IMG/VR virus record: IMGVR_UViG_3300029073_000029
Origin: a virus
Lineage: Duplodnaviria; Heunggongvirae; Uroviricota; Caudoviricetes
Reading direction: 5' to 3' (one strand)
DNA: 6,136 nt
Both the position numbers and the translations under genes were made by a program. Below, piece by piece: positions 1-6,136 of the stretch. The number at the start of each line of letters is the position of its first letter. The stretch's first letter is position 1. Under the pieces are notes generated by a model, which was given only the letters and a program-made list of their open reading frames with translations, had not been told where the DNA came from and searched no databases.

Positions 1-22
1 CGAAGGTGAGTTGATGGCTCAT
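1..22 (-). CDS. 5' end of a minus-strand ORF (MSHQLTF...) that runs off the left edge; sits where P4 beta follows gop
   Basis: ATG at 22..20 (plus-strand cat), AGAGG about 6 nt upstream, frame open to position 1. It starts 41 nt after the TGA of the 63..1082 gene. Only 7 codons are visible, so identity is unknown. Confidence 0.3.
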
Positions 23-62
23 GATGTCCCTCTGGGATGCGCTCCGGATGAATATGATGATC

Positions 63-1082
63 TCATATCAGGAACTTGTTCGCACCTTCCCTAGCAGAAC
101 GGACATCGACTGGTGTAAGGAAGAATTTATTCTTCCATTTTTGATTTTTAAATCTTGAGGATAGCCTTGCTATTAAAGATGACTTTCCATTTCCTGAACC
201 GCCTATAAGTGATAGGACTCTACTTTGAGAGCTATTTCCTCTAACATTCTCAAGATAATCCCAAACTTCTTTCTGTATATATTCGCGACCAACAAAGTCT
301 TTCGGCTGACATGGCTTATAATCCATAAAATCGTCAGCAAGAATTATTTCACTGACAATTTCCCTTTCGTAATTTTCAGATAATTTTGAAGACGAAACAG
401 TTTGTTCCGGTTCAGATAATATATAAAAATCAGTTACTTCCAACCCTTCAAAAAGCCCTTGCTCCTTTATAATATCACTTATGCGACTGACACTTGGAAT
501 TTTACTATTTTTATTTATAGCGAACGGCACCACTCTTATAGGGCTACCATTTTCAACTTCTTGCAAAAGCCAAGTCATTTCTATTTCAGGATGAACTAAA
601 AGTGTTGCACTAGTATATTTTGCCGGAATGTCATCTGTTGGAATATCCTCAACCTTACCTGTTGCAAGTATAGATATAAGAATCTCTTTTTTATCAAAAA
701 AAGAATAATCTATACGCTCATCAAGTCTATAATCCTCAAGCGTTGACTGAGCATCTTTACCCAAATCAGAAATTGAAAAAAGTGCAATTTTTTTAACTCT
801 CAACCTAAATGCTTGAGAAAATGCCAAATCAACCACAGATGAATCAACTTTTTGCTGCATGAATTTACATTCTACATACAGCTTTTCATTTGATGGTGTA
901 TGAGTAGCCTGAATATCAATTTCCATGCCAGATTTTCTGACTTCCATACCATCAATTCTATACGATTGCCGGCGGAGTATATCAGCGCAAAAATTCTCGA
1001 AAAACTTCCCTCTCGAGGTATTGGAATAATTACTAGGTACACAAACTATCAAATCTTTATTCAGTGGTAACGGCCTGGCCAT
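63..1082 (-). CDS. AT-rich cargo protein, 339 aa: N-terminal Mrr-like PD-(D/E)xK nuclease motif plus C-terminal start of an AAA_16/STAND-type P-loop NTPase that appears truncated
   Basis: Complete ORF with AAGGAG about 8 nt upstream of the ATG at 1082. Seen: GKFFENFCADILRRQSY...GMEIDIQA...KLYVECKF (hD...ExK pattern typical of Mrr_cat restriction-endonuclease domains) and FVGREYIQ...RVLSLIGGSGNGKSSLIARL (Walker A, at about 203..180) followed by only about 38 residues before TGA at 65..63. Clearly AT-rich by eye compared with flanking DNA. Position corresponds to gop in P4 (inference). Confidence 0.8.
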   Translation of the reverse strand: MARPLPLNKDLIVCVPSNYSNTSRGKFFENFCADILRRQSYRIDGMEVRKSGMEIDIQATHTPSNEKLYVECKFMQQKVDSSVVDLAFSQAFRLRVKKIALFSISDLGKDAQSTLEDYRLDERIDYSFFDKKEILISILATGKVEDIPTDDIPAKYTSATLLVHPEIEMTWLLQEVENGSPIRVVPFAINKNSKIPSVSRISDIIKEQGLFEGLEVTDFYILSEPEQTVSSSKLSENYEREIVSEIILADDFMDYKPCQPKDFVGREYIQKEVWDYLENVRGNSSQSRVLSLIGGSGNGKSSLIARLSSRFKNQKWKNKFFLTPVDVRSAREGANKFLI

Positions 1083-1097
1083 TTATACACTCCTTAT

Positions 1098-1127
1098 CTC
1101 ATATCCTTTTGACAAGTAAGATATCAA
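1098..1127 (-). promoter_or_regulatory. Candidate sigma70 promoter for the cargo gene
   Basis: On the minus strand, TTGATA (plus 1127..1122), an 18-nt spacer, then TATGAG (plus 1103..1098), just upstream of the AAGGAG RBS. Motif match only. Confidence 0.25.
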
Positions 1128-1202
1128 CCTCGAGTTTCAGAAACCAGTATCTTGCGCATATTTACGACATCAAAACTTTTGGTTATGCACCCACAGCGCG
1201 CA

Positions 1203-1221
1203 GTGCTTTCCCCGCCTCGCC
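1203..1221. other. cos: cos site: 19-nt P2/P4-type cohesive-end sequence
   Basis: Plus strand gtgctttccccgcctcgcc is the reverse complement of GGCGAGGCGGGGAAAGCAC, which I recall as the P2/P4 cohesive end. The following bases on the minus strand (TGCGCGCTG) also match my recollection of the P2 left end. It lies right after psu, as in P4. Confidence 0.7.
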
Positions 1222-1323
1222 CGCCCGCTTTGCGGGGCGGTTTTAATGCAGTTGCACTGACACGCTCAGACCGCGCCGGGAATGGTGCGGTCTGCAGAAA
1301 ATGAGGCAGGAAAACGCATGCAA

Positions 1324-1355
1324 AGCCATGCACCTTATCGATGCATGGCTTTTTT
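1324..1355. terminator. Perfect 9-bp hairpin with T-tract between psu and cos; possibly bidirectional
   Basis: AGCCATGCA (1324..1332), 9-nt loop, TGCATGGCT (1342..1350), then TTTTT (1351..1355) on the plus strand. On the minus strand the stem is preceded by A-run and followed by UUGCAUGCGUUUU, a weaker U-tract. Confidence 0.5.
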
Positions 1356-1385
1356 CAGTAAAAACGGGAGGATTTTCGGGGAATT

Positions 1386-1958
1386 TTACACAGACTGACG
1401 TGATGCCAGTTGCGCACTTTTACGCGAAAAAATCATGTTCTGCGCAGGGGTGAATTTTTCACGGCTGTCATCCACCGAAGCCGCGTCAGGCCTGAATCCG
1501 ATGGTCGTTAAAATGTCACTATCCTGTGCGGAATAATTAATTTTTTCCCCCTTCGCAAGCCAGGACAGAAGGGCTTCACGCAGGGCATCTGTGGCACGCT
1601 GTATGGCACAGTTTCGGGCAATGGCCGTCAGCTCACTGTAGCCCATCAGCTCCGGTGCCAGTGCCGCCGCCAGTGCTGTGCCGTGCTGCTGCATAAAATC
1701 ATTCAGCCGGTCGCGGATGCTGATGTGCTGAACGGCTTCATGCGAACGAATATAACGACCGGCGGCCTGATTCACCTGCCATTTTCTGACTTCGATAATA
1801 TTGCGTAATTCGTCCAGGCGACTGACGTTTCTGCCTTCTCCTGACTGAATCCGCAGATATTCCTGTTCGGCCGCAGCCAGCTCATTTTTGCGTTGCAGCC
1901 ATGCTGCTTTGTTATTCTGACAGGTGTCAAAGGCCTGCTGTAAGGCTGTGCTTTCCAT
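1386..1958 (-). CDS. psu: Psu-like protein (polarity suppression / capsid decoration), 190 aa
   Basis: Complete ORF of exactly 190 aa, the length I recall for P4 Psu. Third gene of a sid-delta-psu string, immediately upstream of cos as in P4. No distinctive motif was checked, so the call rests on size and synteny. Confidence 0.7.
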   Translation of the reverse strand: MESTALQQAFDTCQNNKAAWLQRKNELAAAEQEYLRIQSGEGRNVSRLDELRNIIEVRKWQVNQAAGRYIRSHEAVQHISIRDRLNDFMQQHGTALAAALAPELMGYSELTAIARNCAIQRATDALREALLSWLAKGEKINYSAQDSDILTTIGFRPDAASVDDSREKFTPAQNMIFSRKSAQLASRQSV

Positions 1959-2031
1959 CGTTATCTCTTTCTCATCATGCTGAAGAATAAAAATACGGTG
2001 TGCGGCGACGGCCGGTGTTAACCGGCAGCCC

Positions 2032-2532
2032 TCATTCCAGACGCAGCGAATATGATTGTGTTTTTAACCGTACTGGCGGCAGTTCCTGTTTTTCATGCAG
2101 GCTTTCTGCAAGCTCGTCCGGCGTGACCGGGCGGACAATGAAGCGGTTGATGGTCTGAAGCGTTTTAAACACCAGACCACAGCCCGGATCCGTGCACACA
2201 TAAAAACGCTCGGTGACTTCCTGAGACAGACGCCGCGATGTTCTTGACAGCGCAAGGCCTTTACATCTCCGACAACAATATCCGGTAACAAGCATTCTTT
2301 TCGGGCGCTTCATGCTGCCGGAGGCTGACGTCAGTGAATCGCGGTATCTCTGTTTGCCTGAAATGTATTCCATTCCTGAATCTTTACAGTCAGAGAAAAA
2401 GCTTTCACTCGCTTCAAATGTCGCAGAGCAATAAATATTCCGGCACTGTGCAATCATTATCTTGGTGCCATCGTCCATGAAATGTGCGCGACGGGTGTGA
2501 GCAACATGTCCACACGACGGGCAGTAAATCAT
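2032..2532 (-). CDS. delta: Delta late-gene transcriptional activator, 166 aa, with two Ogr-type zinc fingers
   Basis: Two copies of the C-X2-C-X22-C-X4-C finger characteristic of the Ogr/Delta family: CPSC...(22)...CRNIYC and CRRC...(22)...CTDPGC. Start ATG overlaps the sid stop as ATGA (plus strand 2529..2532 tcat). Length matches the 166 aa I recall for P4 Delta. Confidence 0.9.
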   Translation of the reverse strand: MIYCPSCGHVAHTRRAHFMDDGTKIMIAQCRNIYCSATFEASESFFSDCKDSGMEYISGKQRYRDSLTSASGSMKRPKRMLVTGYCCRRCKGLALSRTSRRLSQEVTERFYVCTDPGCGLVFKTLQTINRFIVRPVTPDELAESLHEKQELPPVRLKTQSYSLRLE

Positions 2533-3263
2533 GACAGCAGTCCTCTGGCCTTAAGCTTTGCTCCCTGCTGGTCTATTTTGTCCTGCCACACCTTGCGCTG
2601 TGCCGGTGTGCCTGCCACCTCATAATCCATGTGCGGGAGTGTTGCCGCTGACAGTCCGGTCAGCCGGAGAACCGGCTCGCCGGTGAGGCTGATTTGCATC
2701 TGTTTTATTTTCTGTTCCAGCGATGATTTCACCTGCTGCATGACAGCCTTTTCCGGTGCGACGTAGCCCTGATGGCCGGTGGTGTTGGCGAGCGGATTTT
2801 CCTGTACCAGGATGCTCAGATGCATTGCCCGGACAAGCGCCTCACAGGTTTCATTCAGGGCGTGTTCCAGCTCATGCTCTGCATACAGACTCAGCAGGTG
2901 ATGATGTGCCTTCCGGTAGGCGGTGGCCGTGCTGTCACACGCCCCTTTCAGGCGTTCGCGTTCAAAATTCAGCACCACGGCCAGATTGTCATATTCCTGT
3001 ACCAGCTCCCGGCGTGCCACGCGCTCAATGTGGCGCTGTTTCAGCTCGTCGCTCAGGACACCACCGGCTGCACGAAAGGCCGTGCGCCAGTCGTCAGCGT
3101 CGTTTCCGTCGGCCTGCGCCAGCGCATTTTTTTCCTGCTCTGCCCGTTCAATGGCCGTGACGGTCTCATCCATCAGGCGGGCGTTCTCAAGATGGGCGGC
3201 TCTGGCCTTTTCCAGTTGTGCCAGTGCGGGTTTCAGATATTCAGGGATAGTGTGGTCAGACAT
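2529..3263 (-). CDS. sid: Sid-like external scaffold / capsid size determination protein, 244 aa
   Basis: The ORF-track start at 3281 is a GTG. The ATG at 3263 has AGGAG about 7 nt upstream and gives 244 aa, the length I recall for P4 Sid. Helix-prone composition. First gene of the sid-delta-psu order, downstream of TGT-N12-ACA sites. Confidence 0.8.
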   Translation of the reverse strand: MSDHTIPEYLKPALAQLEKARAAHLENARLMDETVTAIERAEQEKNALAQADGNDADDWRTAFRAAGGVLSDELKQRHIERVARRELVQEYDNLAVVLNFERERLKGACDSTATAYRKAHHHLLSLYAEHELEHALNETCEALVRAMHLSILVQENPLANTTGHQGYVAPEKAVMQQVKSSLEQKIKQMQISLTGEPVLRLTGLSAATLPHMDYEVAGTPAQRKVWQDKIDQQGAKLKARGLLS

Positions 3264-3297
3264 TTTCCGGCTCCTCGTCACTTCAGGTTAAGAAAAT

Positions 3298-3353
3298 TGT
3301 GACGTACACCGGACAGCAACACGACGCATTGCAGATGTGCCAGCCCTGACACA
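3298..3353 (-). promoter_or_regulatory. Psid-like late promoter with two TGT-N12-ACA activator sites
   Basis: TGT(3298..3300)-N12-ACA(3313..3315) and TGT(3336..3338)-N12-ACA(3351..3353). The distal site is centred about 55 bp and the proximal about 17 bp upstream of a transcription start assumed near 3290. Ogr/Delta-activated P2/P4 late promoters have this element centred near -55. Confidence 0.5.
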
Positions 3354-3408
3354 GGAGACTCATCCTCACACCGGCAAGCCAGGAAAAGGTCGCAGGAAAA
3401 ACCGGCTT

Positions 3409-3577
3409 ACTGTTTGTTTTTTTATATTTTACTGTTCACCTCTGTTCACCTTAATAAAAAAGATAAGTAATACAGTAAGTTAAAGGATGAACAATCGCAG
3501 TAATGACTGTTCACCGTCTGTTCACCACTGTTCACCCGCTCATGGACTTTTTGTGCTGTTTACTACTGTTTGTTTTT
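3409..3577. other. ori: Putative replication origin with alpha-type iterons
   Basis: Five perfect direct TGTTCACC octamers at 3433..3440, 3443..3450, 3508..3515, 3519..3526 and 3529..3536, spaced about 10-11 bp, separated by an AT-rich spacer and bracketed by a 13-bp direct repeat ACTGTTTGTTTTT (3409..3421 and 3565..3577). I recall TGTTCACC as the type I iteron bound by P4 alpha at ori and crr. Confidence 0.6.
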
Positions 3578-3640
3578 ATTAATTCGCCGGGAATGAATAA
3601 GAAGAAACGATTTGTATTTCACTATAAAAATTACAAATTG

Positions 3641-3670
3641 CTTTAAGTGGCTTTAAATGACTTTAAGTGG
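3641..3670. repeat. Three tandem 10-bp repeats CTTTAA(G/A)TG(G/A)
   Basis: ctttaagtgg / ctttaaatga / ctttaagtgg, head to tail with helical-turn periodicity, about 150 bp upstream of vis. Function not determined; candidate regulator-binding array. Confidence 0.6.
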
Positions 3671-3695
3671 AAATGAACAAAAAACACACAACCAT

Positions 3696-3713
3696 TGTAA
3701 GGCTGCCGGAACA
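3696..3713 (+). promoter_or_regulatory. Candidate activator site of a PLL-like late promoter driving vis
   Basis: TGT(3696..3698)-N12-ACA(3711..3713), centred about 110 bp upstream of the vis ATG, which would place a transcription start near 3755..3760. Confidence 0.4.
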
Positions 3714-3815
3714 AATCCCCCCTGTTGCGTCTGCTGAAAATATTCACAAAATAAAGCGCTACCCGAAGCCGGACGGACTTATCCGGTGCTGTATGGACAT
3801 TAACGAGGTAGCCCG

Positions 3816-4082
3816 ATGCAAGCTGTTTTTTCTTCCCCGTCTCCCGCCCCTGTGACGCCACTGATGCCGCTGCCGGACATCACACAGGAGCGTTTTTTAC
3901 GTCTTCCGGAAGTGATGCACCTGTGCGGCCTGTCACGCTCGACCATCTATGAACTCATCCGTAAGGGGGAATTTCCGCCGCAGGTGAGTCTTGGCGGTAA
4001 AAATGTGGCCTGGCTGCACTCTGAAGTCACCGCATGGATGGCCGGCCGCATTGCCGGACGCAAACGGGGGTACGACGCATGA
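3816..4082 (+). CDS. vis: AlpA/Vis-family DNA-binding regulator (excisionase-like helix-turn-helix), 88 aa
   Basis: [51 protein letters not shown] matches the AlpA-family pattern (LP.V....G.SRST.Y.....G.FP....LG.....W...EV..W). GAGG lies 7 nt upstream of the ATG at 3816. An alternative in-frame ATG at 3864 would give 72 aa. Confidence 0.85.
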
Positions 4083-4117
4083 TGATGCCTGTTCTGCAAA
4101 AAGTCCCTTTTTCTGGC

Positions 4118-4147
4118 TTGCCTTTTTCCGGCATTTGCGGATATAGT
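4118..4147 (+). promoter_or_regulatory. Candidate sigma70 promoter (PLE-like) upstream of the immunity-like leader
   Basis: TTGCCT (4118..4123), 18-nt spacer, TATAGT (4142..4147). Motif match only. Confidence 0.35.
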
Positions 4148-4154
4148 TTTTCCG

Positions 4155-4471
4155 CTGCCGCAAAATCGGCAGCCGGGCGTGAGAACCCGTGTAACTCGAA
4201 GGCGACATATGACGCGCCATGCGTCTTTTTTTGTGTCGCAATCAACGCCACAGAGCGCCAGATTATGGTGTGGCGTGTGGTTTGCCGTGCAGGTATGATC
4301 CTGTTCGCAATCGCATGTTATGCCACTGAGTCAATGGTAGCTCAGGCGGGGCAGCCTCCGGGCTGGCCGGTATTCTTCGAGGCCGGTATTCTCACCCCCG
4401 TCTGGGCTATCGCCATCGAGCGTGAGAACTCCGGCGATAGCAGTTATTTGCTACTCGAAGGAGGCTGCCTT
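4155..4471 (+). ncRNA. Untranslated leader with repeated boxes and complementary segments; candidate cI-type immunity RNA region
   Basis: GCGTGAGAAC occurs twice (4177..4186, 4420..4429), each followed by ACTCGAAGG (4194..4202, 4453..4461; the second abuts the RBS of the 65-aa ORF). Between them, CTTCGAGG (4375..4382) and TTCTCAC (4389..4395) are complementary to those boxes, within a 12-nt direct repeat GGCCGGTATTCT (4365..4376, 4381..4392). No convincing ORF with RBS. Boundaries are approximate. Confidence 0.35.
4211..4232 (+). terminator. Short GC hairpin followed by T7; candidate intrinsic terminator within the leader
   Basis: GACGC (4211..4215), 5-nt loop, GCGTC (4221..4225), then TTTTTTT (4226..4232). 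Confidence 0.4.
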
Positions 4472-4669
4472 ATGGCTACAACCCTTACCCCCTCACACCC
4501 TGAATTTGTCTTTGTGTTTGCGGCTGTCCGTCGCGCAGACCGTCATCCCCGTATCTGCATGCTTCGCACCGTCGCCGGTGATGAACGCAGCGCCCGCCGT
4601 TCCCTTGTCCGTGACTATGTGCTCTCCCTTGCTGCCCGTCTGCCGGTGGTGGAGGTGTCCCGTGCGTAA
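4472..4669 (+). CDS. Small protein, 65 aa, first ORF after the leader (position comparable to P4 kil)
   Basis: GAAGGAGG ends about 7 nt before the ATG at 4472. It is the 3' part of the 211-aa track ORF, whose upstream portion lacks an RBS and overlaps vis and the leader. Confidence 0.55.
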
Positions 4670-4949
4670 TAAAAAAGCCCCTCAGACCGTCTCAGCACGT
4701 CATGACGCCCGTGAACACCTCAGCATTGAGGCTTACCATAAGCTCAACCGCGCCAGCGCCGTATCCCAGTTTGTTGGGGGTGATTTGATTCACCGTGAAC
4801 TCTCCGGCCTGCATCAGCTCTACATTCCGCATATTTTCAGCTACCTGAATGAAGATATTGATTTTGTGCTGAATGAGCTGAAAGCCAAAGGCCTGTGCCG
4901 CGATTTTCTCGCCCAGCAGAAAGACCGGGGAGACAGGACGCATGTTTGA
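4662..4949 (+). CDS. Small protein, 95 aa, GTG start (size compatible with P4 epsilon, not verified)
   Basis: GGAGG (4651..4655) sits 6 nt upstream of the GTG at 4662. It overlaps the stop of the 65-aa ORF by 8 nt and its own TGA (4947..4949) overlaps the next ATG. Confidence 0.6.
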
Positions 4950-5397
4950 TTTTCCCCAGCCCGGTGAGATTTACCGTTCTGCCGGTTTTCCCGATGTGGC
5001 CGTGGTCGGCATTCTGGAAGACGGTATTCCGTGGGAAATGCCGTACCGCTGCCCGGACATTGTCTGGAACCCGTACCGCCGTAAATTCAGTATCCTTGTG
5101 CGTATCCTCGATGACGGGCGCACCACAGACATCCCGCTGGGGCGTTTTCTGCGGGAATTTACCTGTGACCGTCCTGACCTGTTTAAACGCAGCCCCGTAA
5201 ACCGGCATGCGGTACTGAAAGAAATGGCCGGAGACCCGGAATTACAGAAATGGCGGGAGAAATATCTGGATATTTACCCGCAGGACACTGTTCCGGCCAG
5301 CCGGGCGGCACCGGTGGCGCGGGAATGGCGGGAAATTCCCCGCACGGAGCCTGACCCGGAAATCACCCCGGATAACAGTTACCGCAATTATCTGTAA
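4942..5397 (+). CDS. Hypothetical protein, 151 aa (same length as P4 orf151)
   Basis: Complete ORF, start overlaps the upstream stop (translational coupling), purine-rich stretch upstream. Length and position within the left operon match my recollection of P4 orf151. Confidence 0.75.
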   Translation: MFDFPQPGEIYRSAGFPDVAVVGILEDGIPWEMPYRCPDIVWNPYRRKFSILVRILDDGRTTDIPLGRFLREFTCDRPDLFKRSPVNRHAVLKEMAGDPELQKWREKYLDIYPQDTVPASRAAPVAREWREIPRTEPDPEITPDNSYRNYL

Positions 5398-5470
5398 TTA
5401 AAAAACGATACCCGAAAAATTAAATGTGCGTATTCGCGCAGGGATACGCACGTCTTCAGGAGACGCAGAT

Positions 5471-5536
5471 ATGCCTTATCAGTTAATGCAACCGGCACGG
5501 AATGCAGTCATCTGTCACAGGGAGGAAAACAAATGA
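5471..5536 (+). CDS. Possible 21-codon leader micro-ORF ([21 protein letters not shown]) coupled to the next gene
   Basis: AGGAGA (5458..5463) lies 7 nt upstream of the ATG at 5471. Its stop TGA (5534..5536) overlaps the ATG (5533..5535) of the 106-aa ORF as ATGA. Too short to judge by composition. Confidence 0.25.
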
Positions 5537-5853
5537 AAACACCCTTACCGCCCGTCTTACGCGCTGCCCTTTACCGTCGCGCTGTCGCCTGTGCCTGGCT
5601 GACCGTGTGCGAACGTCAGCACCGCTACCCGCATCTCACCCTTGAGTCACTGGAGGCGGCCATCGCCGCTGAGCTGGAAGGCTTTTATCTGCGCCAGCAC
5701 GGTGAGGAAAAAGGGCGTCAGATAGCCTGTGCCCTGCTGGAAGATTTAATGGAATCCGGCCCCCTGAAGGCCGCGCCGTCGCTGTCCTTTCTCGGGCTGG
5801 TTGTGATGGATGAACTCTGTGCCCGTCACATAAAAGCGCCGGTACTGCACTGA
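5533..5853 (+). CDS. Hypothetical protein, 106 aa, immediately upstream of the primase
   Basis: GGGAGG ends 8 nt before the ATG. Complete ORF ending 14 nt before the alpha start. Whether this or the 95-aa ORF is the epsilon (anti-repressor) equivalent cannot be decided from sequence alone. Confidence 0.75.
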
Positions 5854-5867
5854 AGGAGAACAACACC

Positions 5868-6136
5868 ATGAAAATGAACGTAACCGCCACCGTCAGCCAT
5901 GCGCTCGGCCACTGGCCGCGTATTCTCCCGGCGCTGGGGATTCAGGTGCTGAAGAACCGTCATCAGCCCTGTCCGGTCTGTGGCGGGAGTGACCGCTTCC
6001 GTTTTGATGACAGGGAGGGGCGTGGCACCTGGTACTGCAATCAGTGTGGTGCCGGTGACGGCCTGAAACTGGTTGAAAAGGTGTTTGGTGTTTCCCCGTC
6101 CGACGCGGCCGCAAAGGTGGCTGCCGTGACCGGCTG
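5868..6136 (+). CDS. alpha: Alpha-type primase/helicase replication protein, N-terminal part only (runs off the window)
   Basis: AAGGAG (5853..5858) lies 9 nt upstream of the ATG at 5868. Translation MKMNVTATVSHALGHWPRILPALGIQVLKNRHQPCPVCGGSDRFRFDDREGRGTWYCNQCGAGDGLKLVEKVFG carries a CxxC...CxxC zinc ribbon of the kind found at the N terminus of P4-type primases. No stop within the window. Confidence 0.85.
   Translation, partial: MKMNVTATVSHALGHWPRILPALGIQVLKNRHQPCPVCGGSDRFRFDDREGRGTWYCNQCGAGDGLKLVEKVFGVSPSDAAAKVAAVTG

What the first reader, a model, noticed from the sequence alone, without database searches (positions are those of the whole stretch)
63..203. NTPase module ends about 38 residues after Walker A: truncated or decayed
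Seen: the Walker A GGSGNGKS (about 203..180) is followed by only about 38 residues before TGA at 65..63. That is too short for a Walker B and the rest of a P-loop fold. Just beyond the stop the sequence composition changes, and a new ORF starts in a different frame. Inference: either a deletion or recombination joint removed the remainder of a larger STAND protein, or a frameshift hides a longer product. A nuclease freed from its regulatory ATPase and sensor could be constitutively active, which would fit a toxin needing an antidote.
Basis: inference. Interest (0 to 1): 0.6.

Follow-up and report, generated by a model that had tools for sequence, protein, structure and literature searches.

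The report
Defence gene cut by IS5-family insertion
The short ATPase is real, but it is the front third of a 913-residue nuclease-STAND defence gene of a P4-like satellite prophage, cut by an ordinary IS5-family insertion sequence; the contig also stops inside that repeat.

Summary
ORF 63..1082(-) encodes 339 aa, with Walker A GGSGNGKS at 203..180 and only 38 residues after it. The cause is an insertion sequence, not a deletion, recombination joint or frameshift.

- **Left junction.** Window 91..6136 is 99.98% identical to intact E. coli loci, where the gene is 2742 nt / 913 aa (WP_000113630.1: Mrr_cat nuclease, nSTAND1 NTPase, winged-helix-rich C-terminus). Identity stops exactly at window 91.
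- **The insertion.** Window 90..1 is 100% identical to the transposase-proximal end of an IS5-family (ISKpn26-like) element: inverted repeat GGAAGGTGCGAACAAG, transposase ATG at 22..20. It sits next to CTAG, a typical IS5 target.
- **The ORF's tail.** Its last 8 codons and TGA are IS sequence.
- **Right junction.** A separate metagenome contig reads IS end, CTAG, then the rest of the gene. This gives a 4-bp target duplication, so nothing was deleted there. The 578-aa remnant ORF also exists in an E. coli isolate record.
- **Frequency.** 53 of 54 complete E. coli genomes carrying the gene have it intact, and full-length homologues run about 890-946 aa.
- **Window edge.** It is an assembly break inside the repeat.

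The "freed nuclease / toxin needing an antidote" idea has no support. The likeliest outcome is a null defence allele. This is an ordinary finding of low novelty.

The parts
63..1082 (-). Chimeric 339-aa ORF. Codons 1-331 are native Mrr_cat-nSTAND1 gene. Codon 331 spans the junction and still encodes R. Codons 332-339 (EGANKFLI) and the TGA are read from the IS.
   Evidence: ORF list; translation compared with the intact allele, first difference at aa 332; exact product found on 8 metagenome contigs.
91..1082 (-). Native 5' 992 nt of the 2742-nt defence gene (WP_000113630.1).
   Evidence: 100% nucleotide identity to L001/L002 over 992 nt. All 53 genome matches end at window 91.
732..1013 (-). 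Mrr_cat (PD-(D/E)xK) nuclease domain, aa 24-117. The catalytic-type residues E54, D56, E71, C72 and K73 are invariant in the family.
   Evidence: Pfam PF04471 E 3.8e-8, 33.9 bits against a cut-off of 21; invariant columns in the 46-sequence alignment A2.
180..203 (-). Walker A / P-loop GGSGNGKS (aa 294-301).
   Evidence: Regex on the translation. S296, G297, G299, K300, S301 and S302 are invariant in A2.
91..94 (.). CTAG, the IS5-type (YTAR) target site. This is the left copy of the 4-bp target-site duplication.
   Evidence: Alignment A1. The right junction in L007 reads ...CACCTTCC|CTAG|AGGCGG. L001 6001-6004 is shared by the window match and the L007 match. YTAR motif: PMC5009759.
1..90 (-). 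Transposase-proximal end of an IS5-family (ISKpn26-like) insertion sequence. It runs off the window edge.
   Evidence: 100% identity over 1..90 to places annotated 'IS5-like element ISKpn26 family transposase' in 2255 records. Identical to the first 90 nt of the IS copies in L006 and L008.
75..90 (-). Terminal inverted repeat GGAAGGTGCGAACAAG.
   Evidence: 15 of 16 complementary to the other end (CTTATTCGCACCTTCC) of the 1196-bp copy in L006.
1..22 (-). First 7 codons of the IS transposase (MSHQLTF...).
   Evidence: In L006 the transposase CDS starts at locus 1522, which corresponds to window 22. The frame offset is 1 relative to the defence gene.
1203..1221 (-). P2/P4 cohesive-end (cos) 19-mer. 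It marks the gene as cargo of the P4 hotspot between cos/psu and int.
   Evidence: Exact match to GGCGAGGCGGGGAAAGCAC, with 0 of 200 shuffles matching. The cos sequence itself is from my memory of P2/P4.
1386..1958 (-). psu (polarity suppression protein), the P4 core gene flanking the hotspot.
   Evidence: RefSeq annotation of the identical locus; Pfam Psu on the called gene.

Best explanation
The ORF is the 5' third of a single-gene defence locus in a P4-like satellite prophage, interrupted by a simple transposition of a ~1.2-kb IS5-family (ISKpn26-like) insertion sequence.

The intact gene encodes 913 aa: an Mrr-type nuclease effector, an nSTAND1 NTPase and a winged-helix-rich C-terminal region. 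It is the only gene between the integrase and the cos site (one small, probably spurious ORF aside).

The IS landed at a CTAG inside codons 330-331. In the predicted structure that is just after the strand following the P-loop helix, and about 60 residues before the Walker B motif (VLTIFFDQFEE, D392-E396).

Translation runs 8 codons into the IS inverted repeat and stops at a TGA in the IS. The rest of the gene lies beyond the IS. There it is called as a separate 578-aa ORF starting at GTG = V336.

The window ends 90 nt into the IS only because short-read assemblers break contigs inside repeats.

Shown: the junctions, the IS identity, the target duplication and the intact allele. Inferred: the allele is a null for defence. 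The fragment lacks Walker B, the oligomerisation surfaces and the sensor, so it can neither sense nor assemble, and the monomeric nuclease most likely stays inactive.
For: - **Left junction.** All 53 complete E. coli genomes matching the region match window 91..1400 and none matches further. No genome covers 80% or more of window 1..200. Alignment A1 shows the window and three independent contigs following the intact allele up to ...GTTCTGCTAG and then reading GGAAGGTGCGAACAAG....
- **Intact allele.** It is 2742 nt / 913 aa and annotated 'nSTAND1 domain-containing NTPase' or 'restriction endonuclease'. Its nSTAND1 score is above the gathering cut-off (32.0 against 27.1), whereas the window product scores below it (20.9).
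- **IS identity.** Window 1..90 is 100% identical to annotated IS5-like ISKpn26-family copies. The reference copy is 1196 bp, its inverted repeats match at 15 of 16 positions, and its transposase starts at the position equivalent to window 22.
- **Right junction.** It was found by exact search in OAUD01000029.1: IS end, CTAG, AGGCGGACG.... L007 9148-12327 equals L001 2825-6004 at 100%, and window 91 equals L001 6001, so a 4-bp CTAG is duplicated.
- **One IS with both ends.** A single IS copy in strain 203740 has both the window's 90 nt and L007's 55 nt at its two ends.
- **Remnant ORF.** The predicted 578-aa ORF exists exactly in public data (P0121 = STF52490.1, 9 contigs, longest 1.29 Mb) and equals the L007 ORF.
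- **Frequency.** 53 of 54 complete genomes with the gene have it in one uninterrupted piece. Of the top 120 homologues, the full-length ones are about 890-946 aa; the shorter entries are fragments, and none ends at aa 331-339.
- **Site conservation.** The insertion site lies in a conserved block: D326 and R328 are invariant, A330 and G332 nearly so.
- **Assembly break.** Contigs from k127 assemblies carry 121 nt of IS and the k119 contig carries 113 nt, which is k-1-5 in each case.
- **Target motif.** The IS5 target-site duplication motif YTAR includes CTAG (PMC5009759).
Against: - The left and right junctions were seen on different contigs from different assemblies. No single record here spans gene, IS and gene, so continuity in the window's own genome is inferred, not observed.
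- Reference IS copies are mosaic at the transposase-distal end: L006 and L008 are 96.3% identical overall. The full sequence of the copy in this locus is therefore unknown.
- Loss of function and lack of toxicity are inferences. Nothing here measures expression or activity of the 339-aa product, whose upstream region and nuclease motifs are intact.
Confidence: 0.94

Rival explanations
1. IS-associated deletion or rearrangement. In the genome the window comes from, the IS marks a joint beyond which the 3' two thirds of the gene (and perhaps int) are gone.
For: The window and all contigs carrying the 339-aa product stop inside the IS, so the far side is unseen in those assemblies. Other copies of this IS do lack matching target duplications and sit next to truncated genes, for example the partial gluconate permease in L006. 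One complete genome (MB53) keeps only nt 1195-2742 of the gene, so partial loss does happen at this locus.
Against: The exactly complementary right junction exists, with the same CTAG and with the uninterrupted 3' part of the gene and int at 100% identity. The matching 578-aa remnant ORF occurs on 9 contigs, about as many as the 6-8 contigs that carry the 339-aa ORF.
Confidence: 0.04
2. Assembly artefact. The gene is intact in the organism, and the assembler wrongly joined it to an IS end.
For: The sequence comes from short-read metagenome assemblies, and the contig ends in a repeat.
Against: The same junction recurs in at least three assemblies made with different k values. The junction falls precisely at an inverted-repeat terminus next to a canonical YTAR target. 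The reciprocal junction exists on another contig, and the 578-aa remnant ORF exists in an isolate-derived NCBI protein.
Confidence: 0.01
3. The 339-aa product is a biologically meaningful free Mrr nuclease, constitutively active or toxic and kept in check by an antidote, rather than a dead remnant.
For: The upstream region and the whole nuclease domain with its invariant E54/D56/E71/C72/K73 are unchanged, so the fragment is probably still made. In apo SeAvs7 the nuclease is sequestered by the C-terminal lobe (PMC13581612), so removing that lobe removes one layer of autoinhibition.
Against: There is no candidate antidote gene particular to this allele. The allele persists in several samples. 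In Avs-type proteins nuclease activation needs NTPase-mediated tetramerisation, and the NTPase is broken here after the second core strand. The tail is 8 arbitrary IS-encoded residues, not a conserved C-terminus. The allele is absent from 5426 complete E. coli genomes.
Confidence: 0.04
4. A frameshift or sequencing error hides a longer continuous product.
For: None beyond the short length of the ORF.
Against: Past window 91 the DNA has no similarity to the gene in any frame and is 100% IS sequence.
Confidence: 0.005

Closest known systems
IS5-family insertion sequences (IS5 / ISKpn26) disrupting host genes, including defence genes
   Same: The 16-bp terminal inverted repeat GGAAGGTGCGAA(C/T)AAG is present. 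The element is about 1.2 kb. The transposase starts MSHQLTF 69 nt from the end. The 4-bp YTAR target (here CTAG) is duplicated (PMC5009759). Inactivation of immunity genes by IS transposition is documented for CRISPR-Cas (PMC10359306).
   Different: Nothing unusual about the element. The only slightly uncommon point is the location. [quoted passage not shown]
EcAvs4 (PDB 8DGF): Mrr nuclease - STAND NTPase - TPR sensor that recognises the phage portal
   Same: For the intact 913-aa protein: an N-terminal Mrr-type PD-(D/E)xK nuclease followed by a STAND NTPase. EcAvs4 is the best solved-structure match of the AlphaFold model (8dgf_B, E 1.1e-11). The intact protein is a single-gene system in a defence hotspot.
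   Different: Identity is 12% and TM-score is low. The protein has 913 aa against 1534 for the 8dgf_B chain. The C-terminal ~430 aa is predicted to be tandem winged-helix-like units and helices, not a long TPR solenoid. It matches no PADLOC Avs model and no PDB chain by sequence. The trigger is unknown. The window's allele lacks everything after the P-loop region.
P4-like satellite defence hotspot cargo (Rousset et al. 2022)
   Same: The gene sits between cos/psu and int of a P4-like element integrated next to ssrA. WP_000113630 is itself listed, as 'Mrr_cat', as sole hotspot cargo in that paper's supplementary table (15 occurrences in the stored text). The text mentions hotspot STAND NTPases with Mrr_cat effectors.
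   Different: I found no evidence that this particular protein was tested experimentally. Here it is IS-disrupted.

Membership tests
IS5-family insertion sequence (ISKpn26-like) | Terminal inverted repeats of about 16 bp, GGAAGGTGCGAA(C/T)AAG | tested here: met
   Window 90..75 reads GGAAGGTGCGAACAAG. In the reference copy L006 the two ends are complementary at 15 of 16 positions.
IS5-family insertion sequence (ISKpn26-like) | Encodes an IS5-type DDE transposase | tested here: inconclusive
   Only 7 codons lie in the window. Window 1..90, and the 121 nt carried by L003, are 100% identical to copies whose CDS RefSeq annotates as IS5-like ISKpn26-family transposase. The rest of this copy is unseen.
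IS5-family insertion sequence (ISKpn26-like) | 4-bp target-site duplication matching YTAR | tested here: met
   CTAG flanks the left end (window 94..91) and the right end (L007 12327..12324). Both map to L001 6001-6004. Caveat: the two junctions come from different contigs.
IS5-family insertion sequence (ISKpn26-like) | Element length about 1.2 kb | not testable with these tools
   The window ends 90 nt into the IS. Reference copies are 1196 bp (L006) and 1194 bp (L008).
STAND NTPase (Pfam nSTAND1) | Walker A P-loop | tested here: met
   GGSGNGKS at aa 294-301, invariant across 46 homologues.
STAND NTPase (Pfam nSTAND1) | Walker B (hhhhD[D/E/Q]) and the rest of the nucleotide-binding domain | tested here: not met
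   Absent from the window's ORF. In the intact allele it is VLTIFFDQFEE, with D392, Q393, F394, E395 and E396 invariant. That is 61 residues beyond the break.
STAND NTPase (Pfam nSTAND1) | Score at or above the Pfam gathering threshold (27.1 bits) | tested here: not met
   The window product scores 20.9 bits and matches profile positions 8-58 of 379 only. The intact allele scores 32.0 bits and passes.
Avs4 (antiviral STAND type 4) | N-terminal Mrr-type nuclease plus STAND NTPase | tested here: met
   True of the intact allele: Pfam Mrr_cat and nSTAND1. The top PDB fold hit is 8dgf_B.
Avs4 (antiviral STAND type 4) | Sequence membership (match to a defence-system Avs HMM) | tested here: not met
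   PADLOC-DB 2.0 gives only a weak P-loop hit to DndF (E 4e-4) and no Avs model. Identity to 8dgf_B is 12%.
Avs4 (antiviral STAND type 4) | Long C-terminal TPR sensor that binds the phage portal | tested here: not met
   The AF2 model (pLDDT 82.6) shows a short, winged-helix-rich C-terminal region. Trigger specificity cannot be tested here.
P4-like satellite hotspot cargo | Located between cos/psu and the integrase of a P4-like element | tested here: met
   psu is at 1386..1958 and cos at 1203..1221. In intact loci int lies 24 nt beyond the gene's stop codon. The protein is listed in the Rousset 2022 supplement.
   No gene is specific to the truncated allele. The flanks are identical to intact loci on one side and are IS on the other.

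The most novel reading that the evidence does not exclude
The IS-split allele is not simply dead. The 339-aa Mrr-nuclease fragment is still transcribed from the untouched upstream region and has lost the C-terminal lobe that autoinhibits such nucleases. It might therefore act as a low-level free nuclease with a phenotype of its own (self-toxicity, restriction-like activity or SOS induction). In addition, the 578-aa remnant might be expressed from within the IS, because the gene's frame stays open 76 codons back into the IS. IS5-family insertion and excision at this CTAG would then behave as a switch for a costly satellite-borne defence gene.
Probability: 0.04. Interest if true: 0.45.

Novelty: already known. 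Interest (0 to 1): 0.1.

Why it matters
It matters little beyond annotation. The locus should be labelled as an IS-interrupted pseudogene of WP_000113630.1, not as a small nuclease/ATPase or a toxin.

Two modest points remain.

- It is a concrete case of an IS-inactivated defence gene inside a P4-like satellite hotspot. A recent survey reports that class as rare (PMC13586616).
- The intact 913-aa protein belongs to a widespread family (536 hits across Enterobacterales, Vibrio, Acinetobacter, Aeromonas and others). As far as I could find, the family is uncharacterised. It is Avs-like, with an Mrr nuclease and a non-TPR, winged-helix-rich C-terminal region, and it matches no PADLOC Avs model. 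It would be a reasonable candidate for phage-challenge and trigger screens.

Tried and rejected
- **Frameshift or hidden longer ORF.** Rejected, because the DNA past window 91 is IS, not gene.
- **Natural short isoform.** Rejected. Full-length homologues are about 890-946 aa, and the tail is IS-encoded.
- **Guessed 3' remnant products.** I guessed the product a gene caller would report on the other side of the IS. Six edge-truncated versions and two IS-internal starts were not in the collection. The GTG (V336) version was.
- **Left-junction exact searches.** Scans of viral contigs and genome contigs found nothing. No complete E. coli genome has the junction.
- **Apparent IS mismatch.** At first the right-junction IS end in L007 did not match the reference copy L006, which suggested a different IS. 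This was resolved: a single copy in strain 203740 (L008) has both end types.
- **Sequence search of the intact protein against the PDB.** No hits.
- **PADLOC and NCBIfam.** Only non-specific P-loop hits.
- **Supplements of PMC13581612.** Not held as text, so I could not check whether this family has an Avs number there.

Full report
**1. The observation**

- ORF 63..1082 on the minus strand encodes 339 aa.
- Pfam finds an Mrr_cat restriction-endonuclease domain at aa 24-117 (E 3.8e-8, above its cut-off).
- From aa 255 only the first ~50 profile positions of AAA_16, nSTAND1 and other P-loop families match, all below their cut-offs.
- The Walker A GGSGNGKS is aa 294-301, which is window 203..180 exactly.
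- 38 residues follow before TGA at 65..63.

One correction applies: the discontinuity lies 25 nt upstream of the stop codon, not beyond it.

**2. Where similarity ends**

- A megablast of window 1..1400 against 5426 complete E. coli genomes gave 53 chromosomes matching at 99.9-100%. Every one matched window 91..1400 and no further.
- No genome covers 80% or more of window 1..200.
- In two of these genomes (L001 = EC1722-1, L002 = STEC346) the gene is 2742 nt / 913 aa. It is WP_000113630.1, annotated 'nSTAND1 domain-containing NTPase' or 'restriction endonuclease'.
- There it lies between a P4-type integrase and psu, with only a small, probably spurious, 69-aa ORF besides. In STEC346 the element sits directly next to the ssrA tmRNA gene.
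- Window 91..6136 is 99.98% identical to L001, with 1 mismatch in 6046 nt.
- The window's protein is identical to the intact one through aa 331. It then reads EGANKFLI-stop where the intact protein reads GGRFVAEAVV....

**3. What the foreign sequence is**

- Window 1..90 is 100% identical to places annotated 'IS5-like element ISKpn26 family transposase' in 2255 records.
- In the reference copy L006 the transposase CDS begins at the position equivalent to window 22. The element is 1196 bp with 15/16-matching terminal inverted repeats, GGAAGGTGCGAACAAG and CTTATTCGCACCTTCC.
- The composition shift is the gene (GC 0.355) meeting the IS (GC 0.50).
- The base before the inverted repeat ends a CTAG (window 94..91). 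This fits the YTAR target-site duplication motif of IS5 (PMC5009759; PMC10359306).

**4. Simple insertion or deletion?**

*Assembly break.* The exact 339-aa product is on 8 human-gut metagenome contigs from at least three assemblies. Every one stops inside the IS. The k127 contigs carry 121 nt of IS and the k119 contig carries 113 nt, which is k-1-5 in both cases. That is the signature of a de Bruijn assembly break in a repeat. The window edge is therefore technical.

*The remnant ORF.* I reconstructed the expected right junction and the ORFs a gene caller would report there. The version starting at GTG = V336 (578 aa) exists exactly in the public collection. It is P0121 = NCBI STF52490.1, 'Uncharacterised protein [Escherichia coli]', on 9 contigs, the longest 1.29 Mb.

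*The right junction.* An exact search for IS right end + CTAG + downstream gene sequence found one metagenome contig, OAUD01000029.1. It reads ...CTTATTCGCACCTTCC|CTAG|AGGCGGACG..., followed by the complete 3' part of the gene and the integrase, at 100% identity to L001 2825-6004. Window 91 maps to L001 6001 and L007 ends its match at L001 6004. The 4-bp CTAG is therefore present on both sides, which is a target-site duplication with no loss of gene sequence.

*One IS with both ends.* The IS end in L007 differed from the L006 copy. A single 1194-bp copy in E. coli 203740 (L008) carries both the window's 90 nt and L007's 55 nt at its two ends, so one IS variant accounts for both junctions.

*Caveat.* The two junctions were seen on different contigs.

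**5. Is the short form a natural variant?**

No.

- 536 homologues were found. Among the top 120, the full-length ones are about 890-946 aa, spread across Serratia, Pantoea, Pectobacterium, Vibrio, Photobacterium, Aeromonas, Acinetobacter, Providencia and Desulfobacterales. The shorter entries are fragments, and none ends at aa 331-339.
- In a 46-sequence alignment the insertion site lies inside a conserved block: D326 and R328 are invariant, A330 and G332 nearly so.
- The Walker B, D392-Q-F-E-E396, is invariant and lies beyond the break.
- 53 of the 54 complete genomes with the gene have it in one piece. The remaining one (MB53) keeps only nt 1195-2742.

**6. What the intact protein is**

- An AlphaFold2 model built on that alignment has mean pLDDT 82.6.
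- It shows, in order: a PD-(D/E)xK domain (aa 1-120); a beta-rich domain (125-210); a disordered linker (225-237); a P-loop NTPase (β1 289-294, helix 300-310, β2 320-326, Walker B strand 386-392); helical and winged-helix modules; and further winged-helix-like units up to the C-terminus.
- The IS break falls right after β2.
- The best solved-structure match is EcAvs4 bound to a phage portal (8dgf_B, E 1.1e-11, 12% identity). Next come archaeal STAND-like ATPases, RuvB, ORC/Cdc6 and NLRs.
- PADLOC has no Avs match, and no PDB chain matches by sequence.
- Rousset et al. 2022 list WP_000113630 ('Mrr_cat') as sole cargo of P4 hotspots. They note hotspot STAND NTPases with Mrr_cat effectors.

The intact gene therefore works like an Avs-type single-protein sensor-effector. 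It fails the tests for membership of Avs4 itself.

**7. Consequence**

This section is inference. In solved Avs proteins the nuclease is held inactive in the apo state, and it becomes active only when target binding drives NTPase-mediated tetramerisation (PMC13581612). The 339-aa product lacks Walker B, the oligomerisation modules and the sensor, so the most likely outcome is a null defence allele.

- No antidote candidate is specific to this allele.
- The allele is tolerated in several samples.
- Its tail is arbitrary IS sequence.

The idea cannot be formally excluded, because the upstream region and the nuclease motifs are intact. I give it about 4%.

**8. Context and novelty**

IS disruption of immunity genes is well known (PMC10359306). 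A 2026 survey reports that defence pseudogenes are rare in P4-like satellites (PMC13586616). This makes the locus a minor curiosity, not a new kind of thing.

Noticed in passing
window 1203..1221 (-), and 1221..1240 (+): There is an exact P2/P4 cohesive-end 19-mer GGCGAGGCGGGGAAAGCAC (0 of 200 shuffles match). It is immediately followed by a GC-rich hairpin with a T-run. This places the defence gene in the cos-int hotspot of the satellite.
   Followed up: partly
window 1124..1333 (-): A 69-aa ORF is annotated in RefSeq as hypothetical protein WP_071590453.1. It overlaps the cos site and the GC-rich non-coding stretch, so it is probably a spurious gene call. It is present in intact loci too, so it is not an antidote for the truncated allele.
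   Followed up: no
window 4141..4417 (+): Rfam matches above gathering score: c4-a1b1 targets (4141..4193), isrK Hfq-binding RNA (4154..4231) and C4 antisense RNA (4330..4417). Together these are the P4-type RNA immunity region.
   Followed up: no
L006 395..1590 versus L008 303..1496: Copies annotated as ISKpn26-family are mosaic. The two copies share the transposase-proximal 121 nt exactly, differ at the distal ~60 nt, and are 96.3% identical overall. Neither copy has a matching 4-bp duplication, and the L006 copy abuts a truncated gluconate permease gene.
   Followed up: partly
reconstructed right junction (L007 12310..12382 and IS copy L006): The defence gene's reading frame stays open for 76 codons back into the IS distal end, with GTG and TTG candidate starts inside the IS. 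The 3' remnant could therefore be translated as an IS-gene fusion if transcription reads out of the IS. Gene callers chose the GTG at V336 (578 aa, STF52490.1).
   Followed up: partly
NZ_CP073939.1 (E. coli MB53) 1091427..1092974: One complete genome holds only nt 1195..2742 of the gene, annotated 'hypothetical protein'. This is a different, independent truncation of the same defence gene.
   Followed up: no
L001 1..3038 versus L002 1..3038: Upstream of the P4-like integrase, STEC346 has ssrA directly. EC1722-1 has a further island there: another integrase, an AAA-family ATPase and an RloB-family protein. This looks like tandem island integration at ssrA, with a second putative defence pair.
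   Followed up: no
intact protein aa ~480-913 (L001 4254..5550, minus strand): The C-terminal region of this STAND family is predicted to consist of several winged-helix-like units rather than TPR or WD40 repeats. It has no Pfam match. The family has 536 detectable members across several gammaproteobacterial orders and Desulfobacterales, and it matches no PADLOC Avs model.
   Followed up: partly
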